Shown: one piece after another, positions 3,372-36,103 of the stretch
Numbering within the stretch: the stretch's first letter is position 1
Layout: every line of letters starts with the position of its first letter
IMG/VR virus record: IMGVR_UViG_3300045988_159857
Coordinates: 51,791 to 115,790 of that record
Source: a virus
Strand: one strand, 5' to 3'
Length of the DNA stretch: 64,000 nt
Made by a program: the position numbers and the translations under genes
The notes under the pieces: model-generated
Told to the model about the DNA's origin: nothing
Database searches by the model: none
The model's input: the letters and a program-made list of their open reading frames with translations, nothing else

Positions 3372-3445
3372 TGGCAGGAATAAGTTGATTCGAACAACTA
3401 CTGCAGCAGTCAAAGTGCTGTGTGCTACCGTTACACCATACTCCT
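3372..3445 (-). tRNA. tRNA-Gln (anticodon UUG), CCA encoded
   Basis: Hand-folded cloverleaf. Acceptor AGGAGTA/TATTCCT has one G-U pair. D arm is GTG(T)/(G)CAC with GG in the loop. Anticodon stem is CAGCA/TGCTG with loop CTTTGAC. T arm is AGTTG-TTCGAAT-CAACT. Discriminator G is followed by CCA. Confidence 0.9.
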
Positions 3446-30861: not shown

Positions 30862-31254
30862 TTACTCACTCTCCTTTAATTTATTTTTTATGTATCTATA
30901 GGTTTTATACCAATTTATTTTACCCCCAGGAACACTTCTATCATCAACTATAAACAAAGCACATAATTTTCTAGGTTTAGTTTCAATTGAAGCTTCTTCT
31001 AAGGTTAGTATTGGTAAGTCCCATTTATGAATCATTTTAACAGCATAATCATATCGTTCATCACATCGACATGTCCATAATATAAGAGTTAAGCCAAGTT
31101 CTTCAACTAATTTTTTAGTATATTTTTCCGCTTTTTTACATAATGTCTTACCGTCTGTTGTTAACGTACCGTCAAAATCAATTCCTACTATTTTTAAGTT
31201 TTTCGTATATTTCGATAACATCTGGTTTCTGTTTTTCATAATTATTTCCAACAT
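30862..31254 (-). CDS. HAD-like hydrolase (start uncertain; overlaps queC-like 3' end)
   Basis: GIDFDGTLT (DxDGT nucleophile motif) and a late IVDDR motif. No clear RBS for any of the three candidate ATGs (31254, 31239, 31221). Confidence 0.5.
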   Translation of the reverse strand: MLEIIMKNRNQMLSKYTKNLKIVGIDFDGTLTTDGKTLCKKAEKYTKKLVEELGLTLILWTCRCDERYDYAVKMIHKWDLPILTLEEASIETKPRKLCALFIVDDRSVPGGKINWYKTYRYIKNKLKESE

Positions 31255-31891
31255 AATTCATAAACTTTTCAATTGTTTCAGGGTCAAACTTATACCCATT
31301 GTTATAAAAAGCTGCAAACTTACTTGTGCACGATGTACACGACATACAAGGTTTACCATTTGTTGGATTATAACAACTTACAGTCGCATTGTAAGCTTCT
31401 TCAATATTACCTCCATTATCAACAAACATCTTTAACAATTCAGTCTTTGTAGTGTCTTTAAAAGGTAATTTTACTACCACAGGACCTTCCCTTGTTTCAC
31501 TTAATAGATATGAAATAACATCTCCAGCTTTTGCTGCAAAGAGCGTTGTCTTGTCATAATGAGTACTTGAACCTGTCGCTCCTAAATAGATTTCGTTACC
31601 GTAATGTGCTGCTAAAGTTACAAAATGTAAATTTCTCAAAGGTAAAAAATAATTCTGGGACGGTCTTTCGTACTCACTTAAATCATAATCAACAACTTTT
31701 AATCTTGTTGTGTCAATTTTACCTTCTTCAACAAGTTTCAACAATTTTTCATACTCTACTTCATTGTTCGCTGTATGTATCCTAACAAACAATATAGTGT
31801 CAGGTTTAATGAGGTGGTCAATCAACCAACTATCCATTCCACCACTATAAAGTAATACTTTACCTTCAGGAATTTTCAACACTTCGTTCAT
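31178..31891 (-). CDS. queC: QueC-like 7-cyano-7-deazaguanine synthase (divergent)
   Basis: PP-loop LLYSGGMDS. C-terminal Zn motif C-x9-C-x2-C-x2-C (SCYNPTNGKPCMSCTSCTSKF). RBS AAGGAG at 7 nt. Confidence 0.7.
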   Translation of the reverse strand: MNEVLKIPEGKVLLYSGGMDSWLIDHLIKPDTILFVRIHTANNEVEYEKLLKLVEEGKIDTTRLKVVDYDLSEYERPSQNYFLPLRNLHFVTLAAHYGNEIYLGATGSSTHYDKTTLFAAKAGDVISYLLSETREGPVVVKLPFKDTTKTELLKMFVDNGGNIEEAYNATVSCYNPTNGKPCMSCTSCTSKFAAFYNNGYKFDPETIEKFMNYVGNNYEKQKPDVIEIYEKLKNSRN

Positions 31892-32609
31892 ACATATTCT
31901 CCTTGTTTATAATTAAATGTCTGGTTTCATAGTTTCCGACTTTATGTGCTATAAAAGTTGTTAAAGGAAGAATTATTGCTTCATAACCTGTTTTAAGGAT
32001 AACTTGTAAACAAATCATTGTGACTACTTCCTTAACAGTCATAATAGGATTAAGAACTAAAAATGCTAAAGGTAAGTAAATACAACTATCTACTATCTCA
32101 CCTACAAAACTGGAAAGTATGGCTCTCAACCCAAAACCTTTATGGTCAGTCACTTCGACATGACGTTTTTTCATCTTAGCAAAGATAACATCGTTAGCAA
32201 AATCTCCGAAAACATAAGCTATAATAGAAGCAACACTACAAGCAAAACTACCATTAAGTATCAATTTAAAAGAAGTTGATATTGTTACATAATAATCATT
32301 ATTAGGTACCGGAAATTTACTGACAATTGCAAATATTATTATCATTAAAAGGTTACAAGTAAAGGCAATATAACACGTTCTTCTACTCCACTGATAACCG
32401 TAAACTTCTGAAAAGACGTCTGACAATATATAGGTTACAGGAAACAACATCACAGCACTTGTCATACTAAACCCGAAAAAGTTAAATATTCTAGAGGATA
32501 TAATGTTTGAAATTAACAATGCGCAGACAAATATAATAGTTAGAATATTTTGAACGGGACTTATATTCTTATTGTCAAGTCCAAATTCTTTTTGTAAAAA
32601 CTTTAACAT
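31866..32609 (-). CDS. yhhQ: YhhQ/COG1738-family queuosine-precursor (preQ0/preQ1) transporter
   Basis: Polytopic membrane protein. It aligns by eye with E. coli YhhQ over three segments: ISNIISSRIF..FPVTYILSDVFSEVYG, ASIIAYVFGDFANDVIFAKMK and SSFVGEIVDS. Confidence 0.8.
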   Translation of the reverse strand: MLKFLQKEFGLDNKNISPVQNILTIIFVCALLISNIISSRIFNFFGFSMTSAVMLFPVTYILSDVFSEVYGYQWSRRTCYIAFTCNLLMIIIFAIVSKFPVPNNDYYVTISTSFKLILNGSFACSVASIIAYVFGDFANDVIFAKMKKRHVEVTDHKGFGLRAILSSFVGEIVDSCIYLPLAFLVLNPIMTVKEVVTMICLQVILKTGYEAIILPLTTFIAHKVGNYETRHLIINKENMYERSVENS

Positions 32610-32618
32610 TTAATTTTA

Positions 32619-32657
32619 CTCCTTTAATTTTTTATGGTTGGGAAAGGATTACAACCA
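32619..32657 (-). promoter_or_regulatory. candidate preQ1-I-like riboswitch (H-type pseudoknot sequestering the yhhQ SD)
   Basis: RNA is UGGUUG-UAAUCCUUUCC-CAACCA-UAAAAAAUU-AAAGGAG. P1 is 6 bp. Loop UCCUUU can pair with AAAGGA of the SD to form P2. An A-rich L3 is present, and C residues lie immediately 5' of the P1 3' strand. The ATG lies 9 nt after the SD. Confidence 0.45.
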
Positions 32658-32665
32658 GATTTTGT

Positions 32666-33001
32666 TTACTCTTTTTCCACTGTTACTGGAAAATGTTTAG
32701 CATTTTCAGCTCTAACGCTTACTTTAAGATATTTTGGTTTATATTCATCTTGGAGGTGTTGATAAACTCTGTCTACAACATCCTCTATAATAAGGTTCTG
32801 TCCTTGAATATAATTATTAAAAAACTCTTCTTCGTCAAGATAGTCCATCATCACCGTACCAGGGGTAAACTGAACGGTTATATAGGTTGTGTAATAATCA
32901 TGTCCAAGCGGACAATAAACTGTAAGAGTTTTATCAAAGGTTACTTTACTTATACCTTGTGTGTGTTCAAACTTAGCCAACTTGTCACCTTCTCTTAACA
33001 A
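32666..33001 (-). CDS. QueF-like T-fold protein lacking the NADPH-binding QueF motif
   Basis: Aligns by eye to B. subtilis QueF. LTVYCPLGHDYYTTYITVQFTP matches [22 protein letters not shown], so the catalytic Cys is kept. The E(S/L)K(S/A)hK(L/Y)(Y/F/W) motif is replaced by DYLDEEEFF. Only 111 aa. Confidence 0.55.
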   Translation of the reverse strand: MLREGDKLAKFEHTQGISKVTFDKTLTVYCPLGHDYYTTYITVQFTPGTVMMDYLDEEEFFNNYIQGQNLIIEDVVDRVYQHLQDEYKPKYLKVSVRAENAKHFPVTVEKE

Positions 33002-33017
33002 TATTATATATATATAA

Positions 33018-33272
33018 TCACGAATTACTTCGTGTTGTTTTAATAATATTTATGAAATAATAAACATCTAATACCAATATAATACTATTAGAAATCATTG
33101 TACTATAAGCTAAAAATTTTATAGAATATATCACAAATAAGATAGAAGCCAAACCATTAAACGCCCTCATCAGTAACTGTGTCTTAACAGATTTACAATT
33201 AAACGTCATTGACAAGATAAGTAATATTGTTGCAAAAATTCCAAGACATTCATTAAACAACTTCATCAACAC
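33018..33272 (-). CDS. small 3-TM membrane protein
   Basis: 84 aa with three hydrophobic segments. RBS GAAAGGTG. Confidence 0.55.
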   Translation of the reverse strand: MLMKLFNECLGIFATILLILSMTFNCKSVKTQLLMRAFNGLASILFVIYSIKFLAYSTMISNSIILVLDVYYFINIIKTTRSNS

Positions 33273-33289
33273 CTTTCATTTCAATGATT

Positions 33290-33322
33290 AGTATATATTA
33301 AATACAAATAAAATTCAACTAG
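33290..33322 (-). promoter_or_regulatory. sigma-A-like promoter (variant CTAGTTGA)
   Basis: CTAGTTGAAT, 17 nt spacer, TATACT. Overlaps the polA-C stop. Confidence 0.5.
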
Positions 33323-34490
33323 TTACAGTGTAATTTTTCAAAATAGTTTTAAGTTGCTCTTCACTAAGTTCTTCATACATAGTTTTTATTTGTTCAAAAC
33401 TTTTATTAAAATCATTATTATTAGTTTCCATCAAATTTTTGAAATTATCTTCTACAATTACAGAAAATTCATCAAGATACCAATTCGTTACACAATATGT
33501 GTCAACAGACATTGGAACTGTTGGTATTATATTCTTAGCACTAGTTACCATATCATCAATTAAGTACTCTGAAGCTTTTTCTGAAAATTTTTCAGGTACC
33601 TCTATAAGGATTTCATCGTGAACAGTATTTATTAGTTTTGCTTTGATATTATGAAGTCTTTCATCACTATAAATTTTTATAAGTGCTAATTTTGTAAGAG
33701 TTGCCGCTCCTCCCTGTACACAAGCATTTACACACTGTCTCTCAGCCTGACTTATAAATCCACCATTGTTTTTAATATCTATTTTATCTTTTATTGCATT
33801 TTCTTTGATTACATTTATTTGTTTTAGACTTTTAGCTTCAAGTAATTGCTTCATATAAATATCTATTTTAGGATTCACAGTTTTACCAACAAGTCCTTTA
33901 CAATATAACAAAGGATTTTCTGATATATTTGTTTTTTCAGATAAATCTTTCAAAGTAAACTTCGGTAATAAAATATCTGGTAATCGTCTTCTTCTACCTA
34001 CAATGTCTTCAACATACCCTTTTGTATGTGCCATTTCCATAGTACTATCTATCCATTTTTTAACTGAAGGGAAAGCATTAAAAAATTTGTCTATTATTTC
34101 TTGTGCCTCCTCAGTAGACTTACCTATTTGTTCTCCAACAGACTTAGCACCTCTACCGTACAAAATACCTAAAAGTATACTTTTAGCTAATGTTCTTCTA
34201 TGAGCTCCTTCTTTGTTTTTATGTGTCTTATACCCACAAGTAACTTTATTACCTTCGAAAACTATTTCAGTACCTTCAGGATAAAATTCTAGACATTCTT
34301 CATAAGGATAATTGAACGACTGTGAAGCTATAACTGAATATAGGTCACGCTTTTGTTTATATGCCTCAATCATTCGAGGGTCGTTTGAATAGAAAGCTGT
34401 CAAACGAGGTTCCTGACCACTATAATCTCCGCCAACTATAACATTTTTACATCTTACATTAACACTATTTTTAACATCTTCCAAAGTCAA
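33315..34490 (-). CDS. polA: family-A DNA polymerase, C-terminal part (motifs A, B, C)
   Basis: Motif A is VIVGGDYSGQEPRL, motif B is RRTLAKSILLGILYGRGAKS and motif C is NTVHDEILIEV. The TTG start overlaps the upstream TGA (GTTTGA) just after GAGGAGG. Confidence 0.9.
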   Translation of the reverse strand: MTLEDVKNSVNVRCKNVIVGGDYSGQEPRLTAFYSNDPRMIEAYKQKRDLYSVIASQSFNYPYEECLEFYPEGTEIVFEGNKVTCGYKTHKNKEGAHRRTLAKSILLGILYGRGAKSVGEQIGKSTEEAQEIIDKFFNAFPSVKKWIDSTMEMAHTKGYVEDIVGRRRRLPDILLPKFTLKDLSEKTNISENPLLYCKGLVGKTVNPKIDIYMKQLLEAKSLKQINVIKENAIKDKIDIKNNGGFISQAERQCVNACVQGGAATLTKLALIKIYSDERLHNIKAKLINTVHDEILIEVPEKFSEKASEYLIDDMVTSAKNIIPTVPMSVDTYCVTNWYLDEFSVIVEDNFKNLMETNNNDFNKSFEQIKTMYEELSEEQLKTILKNYTVTS

Positions 34491-36103
34491 ACCTCCTCGT
34501 TAACCAATTTACAAGTAATTGTATACTTTGTACAAACATTTGTAATAGAAATAACTTCCAATTTACCATTTTTTGACAACACTAGGTCTCCAGAAACAAG
34601 TTCAAAAGGTTTTTTCCATCCATCTATAGTTTCAAGCTCATCATCTTTATCTAAAACTATTTTGTCGTTATCAACCGAATATTTATCATATGTATAATCA
34701 GCACAAAACATTAACCGAATATTTTTACTTTTTGAAGGGATATTTTGAAGGTTAGGATTATTTGAACTATATCGACCTGTTTGAGCTCCTAATTGATTGA
34801 AACTTGCGTGTAGTCGATTATCTTTTTCTTGAACACATTCAGGTAACTTATCAATATACGTTCCAATCAGCTTTTGGAGTCCTCGCTGTGACAACACTAA
34901 TTTACACAAGGGTATATCTATCTGTTTTAGAATGTCTTCTCCAGTTCCCCTTGGACTCTTTTTACTTTTTGGGGGTATAGCTAATACGTCATATAATAAT
35001 ATAGCAAACTGGGTAGGACTGGTTAATTCTGGAGGTGACTTTAGTTGCTCAGACTTTGAACGTTGGTACGTATATTCACCATTTTTGTTTGGTTTTTTAC
35101 TTTTCGGTTTAAATATTGCAGCAGGCGTTTTTCTCCACTCGTTTATTTTATCCTCATATTTTAAAAGTTCTTCTGAAATTTGTTTATTAACTTCATCCTC
35201 AAGTTTATGATACTTAACACTAAGTCTTTGGGCATATCCTTTGTCAATAGACATTCCTGCGAGTTCCATTTCGGCGGTTACAGTAACTATTGGCATTTCA
35301 ATGTCGAAGAATAACTTCTTTATTCTTGAGTTATCTGGTAAATCCATTTGAACTTTTTGCCATTCATAAAGTTTATATGTCATATAAGGGTCAGTAGCGG
35401 CATATAAGGCAAAAACTTTAGGGTCAACCAAAGCATATTCAAGATTCTTAAATAAATTTTCAATATCATATTTTTCAATTGACGGGTCAATTTTCTGTAT
35501 ATACTGCTCCTTCAATGATACGTGTTCATTTTCATTAAGAAGTGCAGCGGCTATAATAGTATCCCAATAAATATTAAGGGATAATCCACAAGTACATTTG
35601 ATAACTTCATAGTCAAACTTACCGTTGTGCATAATTATATTAGTATTTGATAATCGACTAAACTCGTGGGCTATCTGTTCTTCCGTTAATTGATTTTCCA
35701 GTCTTTCTCTTGTTTCAGGATTAACATGATTAACTGGAATATAAATGTTTTTCCCACCAGGAGTATAAATACAAGGACCCATTAGCTTACAACTAACGGG
35801 TTGTAAGCTATTATTTGTCTCAGTGTCAATAGCTATAACACCGTTTGAAATCGCTAAGTTAATATAGTTATGTAAAGTAACTATATCAGTTATTACTTGA
35901 GTTTTCTCTTTGTAAATTCCTAAAATTCTATTTACTTCTTGTTCAATCTCCAAAAGTTGTTGTTTTAAGGACAAAGAACTATTTGATTTAGTCTTTGTCC
36001 TTTCACTTCTTTCTTTTGTGGGATTACTTATTTTTTTTATTATTTTTTTCGCTTTTTCGGGTGTCTTAGGAACAACAAATTCGTCTCCCCACAACGACGT
36101 CAT
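34487..36103 (-). CDS. polA: family-A DNA polymerase, N-terminal part (3'-5' exonuclease + thumb/palm up to motif A)
   Basis: ExoI is AIDTETN, ExoII is HNGKFDYEV and ExoIII is YAATDPYMTYKL. Pol region TGRYSSNNPNLQNIP...NIRLMFCA is followed by a roughly 70-aa non-polymerase tail. Confidence 0.9.
   Translation of the reverse strand: MTSLWGDEFVVPKTPEKAKKIIKKISNPTKERSERTKTKSNSSLSLKQQLLEIEQEVNRILGIYKEKTQVITDIVTLHNYINLAISNGVIAIDTETNNSLQPVSCKLMGPCIYTPGGKNIYIPVNHVNPETRERLENQLTEEQIAHEFSRLSNTNIIMHNGKFDYEVIKCTCGLSLNIYWDTIIAAALLNENEHVSLKEQYIQKIDPSIEKYDIENLFKNLEYALVDPKVFALYAATDPYMTYKLYEWQKVQMDLPDNSRIKKLFFDIEMPIVTVTAEMELAGMSIDKGYAQRLSVKYHKLEDEVNKQISEELLKYEDKINEWRKTPAAIFKPKSKKPNKNGEYTYQRSKSEQLKSPPELTSPTQFAILLYDVLAIPPKSKKSPRGTGEDILKQIDIPLCKLVLSQRGLQKLIGTYIDKLPECVQEKDNRLHASFNQLGAQTGRYSSNNPNLQNIPSKSKNIRLMFCADYTYDKYSVDNDKIVLDKDDELETIDGWKKPFELVSGDLVLSKNGKLEVISITNVCTKYTITCKLVNEEV

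What the first reader, a model, noticed from the sequence alone, without database searches (positions are those of the whole stretch)
32610..32665. Candidate preQ1-I-like riboswitch controlling translation of the phage yhhQ transporter
Seen: the 56-nt gap between the queF-like stop and the yhhQ ATG reads, as RNA, UGGUUG UAAUCCUUUCC CAACCA UAAAAAAUU AAAGGAG UAAAAUUAA AUG.
- A 6-bp hairpin (P1) forms.
- Its loop UCCUUU is complementary to AAAGGA of the SD, giving P2.
- The two are joined by an A-rich linker.
- C residues sit directly 5' of the P1 3' strand.

Established: preQ1-I riboswitches are roughly 34-nt H-type pseudoknots with exactly this layout. They have an A-rich L3, a ligand-pairing C at the end of L2, and the SD in P2. 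They typically precede queCDEF operons or preQ0/preQ1 transporters.

Inference: the phage throttles precursor import when preQ1 or preQ0 is abundant. The primary sequence differs from the Bacillus and Thermoanaerobacter examples I remember, so it may be a variant.
Basis: partly seen in the sequence, partly recalled or inferred. Interest (0 to 1): 0.65.

Follow-up and report, generated by a model that had tools for sequence, protein, structure and literature searches.

The report
Phage preQ1-type riboswitch variant before yhhQ
The short spacer in front of a phage gene for a queuosine-precursor transporter holds a conserved RNA fold that looks like a new variant of the smallest known riboswitch (preQ1 class I), which is notable because riboswitches are rarely seen in phages and this one sits in a DNA-hypermodification gene cluster.

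Summary
The 56-nt spacer (32665..32610, minus strand) has a 6-bp hairpin, a loop complementary to the Shine-Dalgarno (SD) sequence, an A6 tract and CC before the 3' stem strand. On its own this is not rare: 3 of 66 leaders in the window show similar loop-SD pairing. The comparative evidence is what counts.

- Eight distinct phage relatives keep the element while silent sites in both flanking genes are saturated.
- P1 (the stem) covaries.
- All class-I pocket hallmarks are invariant: the G-C top pair, a U after the 5' strand, a C before the 3' strand, and the A tract.
- Every loop carries a pyrimidine-rich anti-SD.
- A model built from the phage leaders alone recovers canonical-looking yhhQ leaders elsewhere. 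Rfam's PreQ1 model scores one of these at 25 bits.
- Rfam scores the window at only 12.3 bits (cut-off 39). It also misses the validated E. coli type III riboswitch, so that failure is uninformative.

My reading is a translational OFF switch for preQ1/preQ0. It is architecturally closest to type III, is related by descent to type I/II-like leaders, and fits no published subtype consensus. Ligand binding is untested.

The parts
32652..32657 (-). P1 5' strand, UGGUUG. The top G (32652) would form the pocket-floor G-C pair.
   Evidence: Sequence. The inner GUUG/CAAC is invariant in 8 phage variants, and the fifth pair switches U-A to G-C. In the wider family, 3 pairs change on both sides.
32649..32651 (-). 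L1, UAA. The first U (32651) corresponds to U6 of class-I aptamers.
   Evidence: The U is invariant in alignment A5. The role of U6 is taken from PMC10622847.
32643..32648 (-). Anti-SD / P2 5' strand, UCCUUU, inside a pyrimidine-rich loop.
   Evidence: It forms 6 WC pairs with AAAGGA. Relatives carry UUCCU, CUUCU, CUCU or UCCU at the same place, with 94.7% of P2 cells paired. Loops are 62-82% pyrimidine.
32641..32642 (-). L2, CC. The last C (32641) is the candidate specificity base that would pair with preQ1.
   Evidence: The C directly before the P1 3' strand is invariant in all phage variants. Its role is inferred from the class-I literature.
32635..32640 (-). P1 3' strand, CAACCA.
32626..32634 (-). 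L3, U-AAAAAA-UU. This is an A tract that would lie in the P1 minor groove.
   Evidence: The A6 run is invariant in the phage variants and aligns with the AUAAAAAA of the RF00522 consensus.
32619..32625 (-). Shine-Dalgarno AAAGGAG, which is also the P2 3' strand (the expression platform).
   Evidence: AAGGAG is invariant in the relatives. It lies 9 nt before the AUG.
32607..32609 (-). yhhQ start codon.
   Evidence: ORF 31866..32609(-), Pfam Vut_1 E 1e-33.
31866..32609 (-). Regulated gene: a YhhQ-family queuosine-precursor (preQ0/preQ1) transporter.
   Evidence: The transport function of the family comes from literature cited in PMC11625349.
32666..32980 (-). Upstream QueF-like (T-fold) gene. 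Its stop codon lies 8 nt before P1.

Best explanation
The spacer encodes a small H-type pseudoknot aptamer of the preQ1 class-I kind. It acts as a translational OFF switch for the phage yhhQ transporter.

Proposed mechanism: P1 (UGGUUG/CAACCA) forms first. The A6 tract lies in its minor groove. The pyrimidine-rich loop then pairs with the SD to form P2. The ligand, preQ1 and possibly preQ0, would sit between the invariant G-C top pair of P1 and the U-A base of P2. It would pair with the invariant C that precedes the P1 3' strand. Binding would lock the otherwise marginal P2 and hide AAGGAG from the ribosome.

Consequence: the phage makes less importer when the 7-deazaguanine base it needs for DpdA-dependent DNA modification is already abundant.

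Shown here: the sequence, its conservation, P1 covariation, invariance of the pocket positions, the link to canonical-type leaders, and the gene context.

Inferred: P2 docking, ligand identity, the direction of regulation and the physiological logic.

The element is a variant. It is related by descent to type I/II-like yhhQ leaders of Clostridia-like genomes. Its loop has been remodelled into a type-III-like anti-SD, and it fits none of the three published subtype consensus models.
For: - Homologous leaders in 8 distinct phage relatives keep GUUG/CAAC, the loop-initial U, the loop-final C, the A6 tract and AAGGAG, while their flanks differ.
- The leader core is 0.71-0.97 identical, whereas four-fold synonymous sites of both flanking genes are saturated at 0.23-0.57. 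This holds even where the transporters are only 26% identical.
- P1 covaries: U-A to G-C within the phage set. In the wider family 3 pairs show double changes, and 0 of 500 shuffles reach the observed score.
- P2 can form in all variants despite different loop sequences (UCCUUU, CUUCU, UUCCU, CUCU, UCCU). The changes are C-G to U.G.
- Topology and loop lengths match the validated E. coli type III control: L1 2-6 nt, P2 4-6 pairs, L2 2-3 nt, L3 8-11 nt, against Eco 3/3/3/11.
- P1 and P2 are individually weak (-1 to -4.5 kcal/mol), as in the Eco control.
- Model R1, built only from phage leaders, recovers untrained yhhQ leaders as its top hits in 244 kb: L125 at 39 bits, L061 at 26.9, then L010, L019, L060 and L005. 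RF00522 scores L060 at 25.2 bits, E 0.0016, full length with P1 fully paired.
- RF00522 places a full-length, sub-threshold alignment exactly on the element. Its E of 4.2 covers 4227 families, so for the single family named in advance it is about 1e-3.
- Context: yhhQ sits next to queC, a DpdA-like transglycosylase, a QueF-like gene, and folE/queE/queD. yhhQ is a known target of preQ1 riboswitches.
- The leader has no terminator, and queC has its own SD. Control is therefore translational and specific to yhhQ.
Against: - RF00522 is far below its gathering score for the window (12.3 vs 39 bits) and lists nothing for the commoner phage variants L002 and L053. The CM alignment also uses a P1 register with two mispairs.
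- P2 has no two-sided covariation because the SD is frozen. Its complementarity is largely explained by loop composition (shuffle P 0.02-0.87).
- Only about 8 distinct sequences exist, all from one phage lineage. Two IMG/VR scans added none.
- The element departs from every subtype consensus. L2 is ACC, AAC or (U)CC rather than UC or AC. The C that follows the A tract in types I/II is missing. One or two U residues separate the A tract from the SD purines, whereas in Eco the A run abuts GG.
- Some related phages lack the hairpin (L124, L059) or carry a different form (L126, L127), so the element is dispensable in part of the family.
- A ribosome terminating 8 nt upstream will repeatedly unfold P1.
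- No binding or reporter data exist.
Confidence: 0.62

Rival explanations
1. The element is a ligand-independent leader structure. It would be a decayed former preQ1 aptamer, or a simple SD-sequestering pseudoknot or hairpin, that constitutively damps yhhQ translation or stabilises the polycistronic mRNA without sensing a metabolite.
For: - The loop has lost the purine-rich half seen in canonical-type relatives, and the C after the A tract is missing.
- In the window, the 6-bp anti-SD/SD helix already appears in the ligand-free MFE fold.
- RF00522 does not recognise the variant.
- Some relatives do without the element.
Against: - A plain SD-masking helix would not need the A6 tract, the G-C top pair, the loop-initial U or the loop-final C. 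All of these are invariant while neighbouring silent sites are saturated.
- These are exactly the positions that contact the ligand or form the pocket floor in all class-I structures.
- P1 and P2 are too weak to be stably closed on their own in most variants.
Confidence: 0.2
2. The element is a functional riboswitch whose pocket has shifted to another 7-deazapurine relevant to phage DNA modification. Candidates are strict preQ0, CDG, the 7-amido derivative or the archaeosine base, rather than preQ1.
For: - L2 (ACC/UCC) and the U-interrupted A tract differ from all three characterised subtypes.
- The phage encodes a complete preQ0 pathway plus a QueF-like enzyme whose product is uncertain. PMC6884629 notes that phage QueF and QueF-L cannot be told apart by sequence.
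- Known subtypes differ strongly in preQ0/preQ1 discrimination: 133-fold in Eco.
Against: - The specificity C and the G-C floor are kept, which argues for a guanine-like Watson-Crick face as in preQ1 and preQ0.
- No data bear on the 7-substituent.
Confidence: 0.1
3. The element is a chance hairpin in an AT-rich spacer with no function beyond carrying the SD.
For: - Loop-SD complementarity of this size occurs in 3 of 66 leaders in the window.
- The fold energy is not better than shuffles.
Against: - The core is conserved across phages whose silent sites are saturated.
- P1 shows compensatory changes.
- The descriptor and model R1 hit almost only yhhQ leaders.
Confidence: 0.03

Closest known systems
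preQ1-I type III riboswitch (E. coli yhhQ leader; PDB 8fza; PMC10622847)
   Same: - It regulates the same gene, yhhQ, by translational control.
- It has the same H-type topology, with a short pyrimidine-rich loop whose anti-SD pairs by Watson-Crick with the GGA of the SD.
- A U-A pair lies next to the pocket.
- L2 is 3 nt and ends in the specificity C.
- A G-C pair tops P1 and is followed by U.
- An A tract precedes the SD.
- Like the phage element, it is invisible to RF00522.
   Different: - P1 is GUUG/CAAC, with two G-C pairs, rather than three conserved G-C pairs.
- L1 is UA(A) rather than UU.
- L2 is ACC, AAC or UCC rather than YAC.
- One or two U residues separate the A tract from the SD purines.
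- P2 is longer (4-6 pairs against 3), and the loop is 10-13 nt rather than 9.
- It occurs in AT-rich phages whose YhhQ is closest to Clostridia, not in gamma-proteobacteria.
- No sequence-level relationship was detected: model R1 does not hit the Eco leader. The likeness is therefore probably convergent.
preQ1-I types I/II (Rfam RF00522; Carnobacterium, Bacillus and Thermoanaerobacter aptamers)
   Same: - P1 of about 5 bp, the AUAAAAAA tail, and the G-C/U/C pocket positions.
- It lies upstream of yhhQ.
- It is related by descent to canonical-looking leaders L060, L061, L010 and L125, which R1 finds at E 1e-6 to 0.04. RF00522 scores L060 at 25.2 bits.
- L125's loop (UAUGAAA + UUCCCAAC) looks like an intermediate.
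   Different: - The purine-rich loop half (UAUGCGAAAA) is replaced by a pyrimidine anti-SD.
- The conserved C after the A tract is deleted.
- L2 is shortened from 4-6 nt to 2-3 nt.
- The whole SD core is paired, not just its first two nucleotides.
- The RF00522 score is 12.3 bits or nothing.
Previously reported phage-borne riboswitches (c-di-GMP-I in C. difficile prophages; glutamine aptamers in cyanophages; PMC5473149)
   Same: A metabolite-sensing RNA carried by a phage next to an auxiliary metabolic gene.
   Different: It belongs to a different class and senses a different ligand. Here the regulated pathway feeds the phage's own DNA hypermodification. No report of a phage preQ1 riboswitch was found in the library.

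Membership tests
preQ1 class I riboswitch (Rfam RF00522) | Covariance-model score at or above the gathering score (39 bits) | tested here: not met
   The window scores 12.3 bits, E 4.2. L002 and L053 are not listed, and there are no gathering-level hits. The test is uninformative, however: the validated E. coli type III leader is not listed either, and a canonical-looking relative reaches only 25.2 bits.
preQ1 class I riboswitch (Rfam RF00522) | P1 hairpin of about 5 bp supported by comparative data | tested here: met
   P1 has 4-6 bp in all relatives. One covarying pair is seen in the phage set. In the wider family three pairs show double changes, with 0 of 500 shuffles reaching the score (outer unpaired positions were N-padded).
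preQ1 class I riboswitch (Rfam RF00522) | Invariant G-C pair at the top of P1 (pocket floor) | tested here: met
   GC in 8 of 8 phage variants and 11 of 11 in the wider set. Its invariance across subtypes is stated in PMC10622847.
preQ1 class I riboswitch (Rfam RF00522) | U immediately 3' of the P1 5' strand (U6) and specificity C immediately 5' of the P1 3' strand | tested here: met
   Both columns are invariant in A5. In the window they are U at 32651 and C at 32641.
preQ1 class I riboswitch (Rfam RF00522) | A-rich L3 able to dock in the P1 minor groove | tested here: met
   The A6 run is invariant. The docking itself was not testable.
preQ1 class I riboswitch (Rfam RF00522) | P2 pseudoknot between the loop and the 3' tail/SD | tested here: inconclusive
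   P2 can form in all 8 variants, with 94.7% of cells paired against 37-84% in slid registers. Changes are one-sided only, and composition-preserving shuffles often do as well.
preQ1 class I riboswitch (Rfam RF00522) | Specific binding of preQ1 (and preQ0) | not testable with these tools
   This needs in-line probing, ITC or SPR.
preQ1 class I riboswitch (Rfam RF00522) | Association with queuosine / 7-deazaguanine genes | tested here: met
   The element lies directly upstream of yhhQ, in a cluster with queC, a DpdA-like gene and a QueF-like gene; folE, queE and queD lie 10 kb away.
preQ1-I type III subtype | Pyrimidine-rich loop whose anti-SD pairs by WC with the SD (AAGG/GGA) | tested here: met
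   Loops are 62-82% pyrimidine, against 89% in Eco and 36-53% in canonical-type relatives. The pairing is shown.
preQ1-I type III subtype | UU after the P1 5' strand, AC before the P1 3' strand, three conserved G-C pairs in P1, and a poly-A run abutting the SD | tested here: not met
   L1 is UA or UU. L2 is ACC, AAC or UCC. P1 is GUUG/CAAC, with two G-C pairs. One or two U residues lie between A6 and the SD purines.
preQ1-I type III subtype | Sequence-level relationship to validated type III members; Pseudomonadota distribution | tested here: not met
   Model R1 gives no hit on the E. coli yhhQ leader. The closest cellular YhhQ relatives are Clostridia MAGs.
preQ1-I type I / type II subtypes | UC (type I) or AC (type II) before the P1 3' strand; a conserved C after the A tract | tested here: not met
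   The window has CC, and only L051 has AC. The tail C is absent (AAAAAAU(U)AAGGAG) in all phage variants.

The most novel reading that the evidence does not exclude
These leaders are a fourth, phage-borne subtype of the class-I preQ1 aptamer. It would have arisen from a type I/II-like ancestor by remodelling the loop into a type-III-like, fully SD-burying pseudoknot. Its altered pocket surroundings (the ACC/UCC L2 and the U-interrupted A tract) would have shifted ligand preference towards the base the phage actually inserts into its DNA, such as preQ0 or another 7-deazaguanine. A riboswitch would then be tuning precursor salvage for viral DNA hypermodification.
Probability: 0.15. Interest if true: 0.8.

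Novelty: new variant of a known kind. Interest (0 to 1): 0.6.

Why it matters
Riboswitches are considered rare in phages. McCown et al. 2017 found only c-di-GMP-I and glutamine examples and speculated that phages may use undiscovered classes or variants. A conserved preQ1-type aptamer inside a phage 7-deazaguanine DNA-modification cluster would have three consequences.

1. It would add a metabolite-sensing RNA to the phage anti-restriction toolkit.
2. It would give a natural series (canonical-type, then the L125 intermediate, then the pyrimidine-loop variant) showing how the smallest known aptamer can be remodelled while keeping its pocket. That series apparently converges on the type III solution of burying the whole SD.
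3. It would expose a blind spot of the curated RF00522 model, which misses both this variant and the validated E. coli type III riboswitch. Phage and gut-metagenome surveys based on Rfam thresholds will therefore undercount such elements.

Tried and rejected
- **Rfam gathering scans** of the window and 24 loci found only a tRNA. The permissive scans are described above.
- **Nucleotide search of deposited phages** found no relatives.
- **Protein-pattern scans of IMG/VR** with YhhQ or the 104-aa protein, singly or as alignment A2, found nothing. With alignment A3 they returned only the two contigs already known.
- **The metagenome scan** gave 5 loci.
- **DNA-pattern scans of IMG/VR.** The core pattern gave 59 hits, of which 57 were chance. 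The loop-plus-tail pattern with P1 left free gave no new genuine case.
- **A Bacillus-like P2** (loop UAA/UA pairing with the U(U)A after the A tract) was rejected. It leaves no L1 and is not conserved.
- **A Thermoanaerobacter-like register** with an A-U ceiling on the U after the A tract was rejected. It fails in the window (U.U) and gives only 2 pairs elsewhere.
- **An alternative helix** between the last codons of the upstream ORF and the loop (GUAGAA/UUCUAC in L002-4, GGAAA/UUUCC in the window; first seen via a spurious PK-PYVV hit) was rejected as a conserved feature. Its register differs between phages, it is weak or absent in L053, L051 and L064, and the upstream strand is constrained by coding (PVTVEKE).
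- **Translational coupling to queC** is not needed, because queC has its own AAGGAG.
- **Transcriptional attenuation** is unsupported: there is no terminator in the leader.
- **A second aptamer ahead of queD-queE-folE** was not found.
- **Plain MAFFT alignments** misplace the variable loops, so a curated N-padded alignment was used for the counts.

Full report
**1. The observation**

The minus-strand sequence between the stop codon of ORF 32666..33001 and the AUG at 32609 reads as follows:

ACAAAAUC-UGGUUG-UAAUCCUUUCC-CAACCA-UAAAAAAUU-AAAGGAG-UAAAAUUAA-AUG

The 6-bp hairpin, the UCCUUU/AAAGGA complementarity, the A-rich linker and the CC in front of the 3' stem strand are all there.

The downstream gene is a Vut_1/YhhQ transporter (E 1e-33) followed by QueC. 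The upstream 104-aa protein is a weak but consistent relative of QueF-like T-fold enzymes. Its Pfam QueF match is below threshold. Its best solved relative is the 109-residue archaeosine synthase QueF-Like (E 0.0012), with the Cys-Pro motif aligned.

**2. Is it more than chance?**

Not by itself. Of 66 leaders with an SD in this window, 26 have a hairpin of at least 5 bp upstream, and three, including this one, reach six contiguous loop-SD pairs. The nested MFE fold is no better than shuffles. The case therefore has to rest on comparison.

**3. Relatives**

Deposited phages and IMG/VR protein scans gave almost nothing. The large protein collection has many YhhQ homologues, and I fetched contigs for twelve of them.

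They are phage contigs of 11-222 kb. Most of them (all but L124-L127) have the order PolA - (queD-queE-folE) - QueF-like - leader - yhhQ - queC - ... - a 314-aa protein. That last protein matches phage 'queuine tRNA-ribosyltransferase', i.e. DpdA-like (E 6e-48).

The window phage has folE, queE and queD 10 kb away. This is a 7-deazaguanine DNA-modification cluster of the kind described by Hutinet et al. 2019.

**4. The element in relatives**

| Source | P1 5' | Loop | P1 3' | Tail |
|---|---|---|---|---|
| window | UGGUUG | UAAUCCUUUCC | CAACCA | UAAAAAAUUAAAGGAG |
| L002/3 | UGUUG | UAGACUUCUACC | CAACA | UUAAAAAAUAAGGAG |
| L051 | GGUUG | UUGCAACUCUAAC | CAACC | AUAAAAAAUAAGGAG |
| L053/56 | UGUUG | UAUUCCUACC | CAACA | AUAAAAAAUAAGGAG |
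| L064 | UGUUG | UUCAUCCUACC | CAACA | AUAAAAAAUAAGGAG |

The invariant features are GUUG/CAAC, the U that opens the loop, the C that closes it, the A6 run and AAGGAG. The 5' flank and the SD-AUG spacer are not conserved.

Four-fold synonymous sites in both flanking genes are saturated (0.23-0.57 identity), but the leader core is 0.71-0.97 identical. L064's transporter is only 26% identical to the window's, yet its leader core is 74% identical to the window's and 94% identical to L053's. This is strong evidence for selection on the RNA.

**5. Structure tests**

On a curated alignment of the eight phage variants (A5), 97.5% of cells pair, against 37-84% in slid registers.
- One P1 pair switches U-A to G-C.
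- Two P2 pairs change C-G to U.G on the loop side.
- The SD side never varies.
- 17 of 500 shuffles reach the observed score.

I then added the canonical-looking leaders L060, L061, L010 and L125 (A6). P1 then has three pairs with changes on both sides, and no shuffle reaches the score. One caveat applies: unpaired outer positions were N-padded, so the 100% paired figure is partly by construction.

P2 is compatible everywhere (UCCUUU, CUUCU, UUCCU, CUCU and UCCU against A(A)AGGAG) but is not proven. Shuffles that preserve the pyrimidine-rich composition often pair as well (P 0.02-0.87).

Both helices are individually marginal, as in the E. coli control.

**6. Rfam**

RF00522 aligns full-length to 32664..32618 but scores only 12.3 bits (cut-off 39). 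It uses a P1 register with two mispairs, and the score comes mainly from the AUAAAAAA..AAGGA tail. L002 and L053 are not listed at all.

Two controls change how this should be read.
- L060 is a metagenomic yhhQ leader with a canonical-looking loop (AGCUG UAUGCAAAAAUC CAGCU AUAAAAAACUAAGGAG). It scores 25.2 bits, E 0.0016, with P1 fully paired.
- The E. coli K-12 yhhQ leader reads AUUGGG UUCCCUCAC CCCAAU GGUUAAUC AAAAAGG. Its linker is the one published for the validated type III riboswitch. RF00522 does not report it at all at E <= 10.

The model is therefore blind to pyrimidine-loop members of the class.

**7. Link to canonical aptamers**

I built covariance model R1 from the eight phage leaders only and searched 244 kb on both strands. 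After the window itself, its best hits were exactly the untrained yhhQ leaders:
- L125: 39.0 bits, E 1e-6
- L061: 26.9 bits, E 7e-4
- L010, L019, L060 and L005: E 0.01-0.04

There is no second copy in the window, and no hit on the E. coli leader.

L125 comes from a phage contig. Its loop joins the canonical 5' half (UAUGAAA) to a pyrimidine stretch (UUCCCAAC), and it looks like an intermediate.

The phage variant is thus related by descent to type I/II-like leaders, while its likeness to type III is architectural.

**8. Comparison with the known subtypes**

All class-I aptamers share five features: a G-C pair under the ligand, a U after the P1 5' strand, a specificity C before the P1 3' strand, A-minor contacts from L3, and a P2 that includes SD bases. 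The phage element has every one of these that sequence can show.

Like type III, it has a pyrimidine-rich loop, Watson-Crick burial of GGA, a U-A pair next to the pocket, a 3-nt L2 and yhhQ as its target.

It differs from type III in these ways:
- P1 composition;
- L1 is UA rather than UU;
- L2 is ACC, AAC or UCC rather than YAC;
- a U(U) lies between the A tract and the SD purines;
- P2 is longer;
- its taxonomic setting is different.

It differs from types I/II in its loop, in lacking the tail C, and in its short L2. I therefore file it as a class-I-like variant, not as a member of any described subtype.

**9. Mechanism**

The most likely mechanism is a translational OFF switch. Ligand-stabilised docking of the anti-SD loop onto AAGGAG blocks initiation of yhhQ only. 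The leader has no terminator, and queC has its own SD.

The aptamer starts 8 nt after the upstream stop codon (6-11 nt in relatives). Terminating ribosomes must therefore unfold it repeatedly, and the switch would work in a refolding, kinetic regime. This last point is inference.

The physiological reading is also inference: import less precursor when preQ1/preQ0 from the phage's own pathway is plentiful.

**10. Novelty**

The library holds no report of a preQ1 riboswitch in a phage. The 2017 survey states that riboswitches are rarely found in phages. The phage 7-deazaguanine paper does not mention riboswitches.

**11. Limits**

- There are about eight distinct sequences, all from one lineage.
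- P2 is unproven.
- There are no binding data.
- Some relatives lack the element or carry another form.

Noticed in passing
L126:1140-1200, L127:1135-1200, L019:1449-1490: A third form of yhhQ leader occurs in related phage contigs and in an Eggerthellaceae genome. It reads ...GCG UUU(N)UUCCUCAU UGC... followed by AAAACACUAAGGAG. The loop closes with U or A rather than C, and the top pair would be G.U. If this is an aptamer, its specificity base differs, which in class I changes the ligand preference.
   Followed up: partly
L123:5176-5216 (E. coli K-12 yhhQ leader) and L060:1440-1484: Rfam RF00522 (release 15) does not report the validated E. coli type III preQ1-I riboswitch at E <= 10 in a 141-nt search. 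It scores a canonical-looking yhhQ leader at only 25 bits against a 39-bit cut-off. Surveys run at gathering threshold will miss such members.
   Followed up: yes
window 33315..36103 (-): The family A DNA polymerase is split into two ORFs of 538 and 391 aa, exactly before the DYSxxExR motif. The N-terminal part ends in a 70-residue extension that begins with Cys right after ...IRLMF. The C-terminal part has about 16 extra residues. Relatives have either an intact 837-849-aa PolA or split versions. The arrangement resembles a split intein, but the C-terminal piece lacks the usual HN + Ser/Thr/Cys junction.
   Followed up: partly
window 33018..33272 (-); L064:5135-5386: An 84-aa, very hydrophobic protein (about 3 predicted helices) is conserved between PolA and the QueF-like gene. 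It has no Pfam or PHROG match. It could be a small transporter or membrane partner belonging to the same cluster.
   Followed up: no
L064:6487-6867; L052:3957-4925; L056:4004-4966: The cluster content varies between relatives. L064 has a second QueF-like paralogue (126 aa, 29% identical to the window's). L052 and L056 carry a zinc-type alcohol dehydrogenase after queC. This suggests different final 7-deazaguanine derivatives.
   Followed up: no
window 32666..32690 (-) with 32641..32648 (-): The last codons of the QueF-like ORF (GUGGAAAAAGAG) can pair with the loop pyrimidines (UUUCC). In L002-L004, GUAGAA pairs with UUCUAC. The register differs between phages, so this is probably a by-product of purine-rich codons, but it could act as a competitor helix.
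   Followed up: partly
L124:1090-1200; L059:170-310; L005:1405-1458: Some relatives have lost the element. L124 and L059 have no P1 hairpin, and L005 has a U in place of the G of the top pair. The leader is therefore dispensable or decaying in part of the family.
   Followed up: partly
window 30862..31254 (-): A 130-aa ORF between queC and the DpdA-like gene matches phrog_1238, annotated 'phosphoheptose isomerase' (E 7e-17). It overlaps queC by about 75 nt, and its role in the cluster is unclear.
   Followed up: no
window 3375..3445 (-): This tRNA gene (60.9 bits) is the only Rfam gathering-level hit in the 64-kb window.
   Followed up: no
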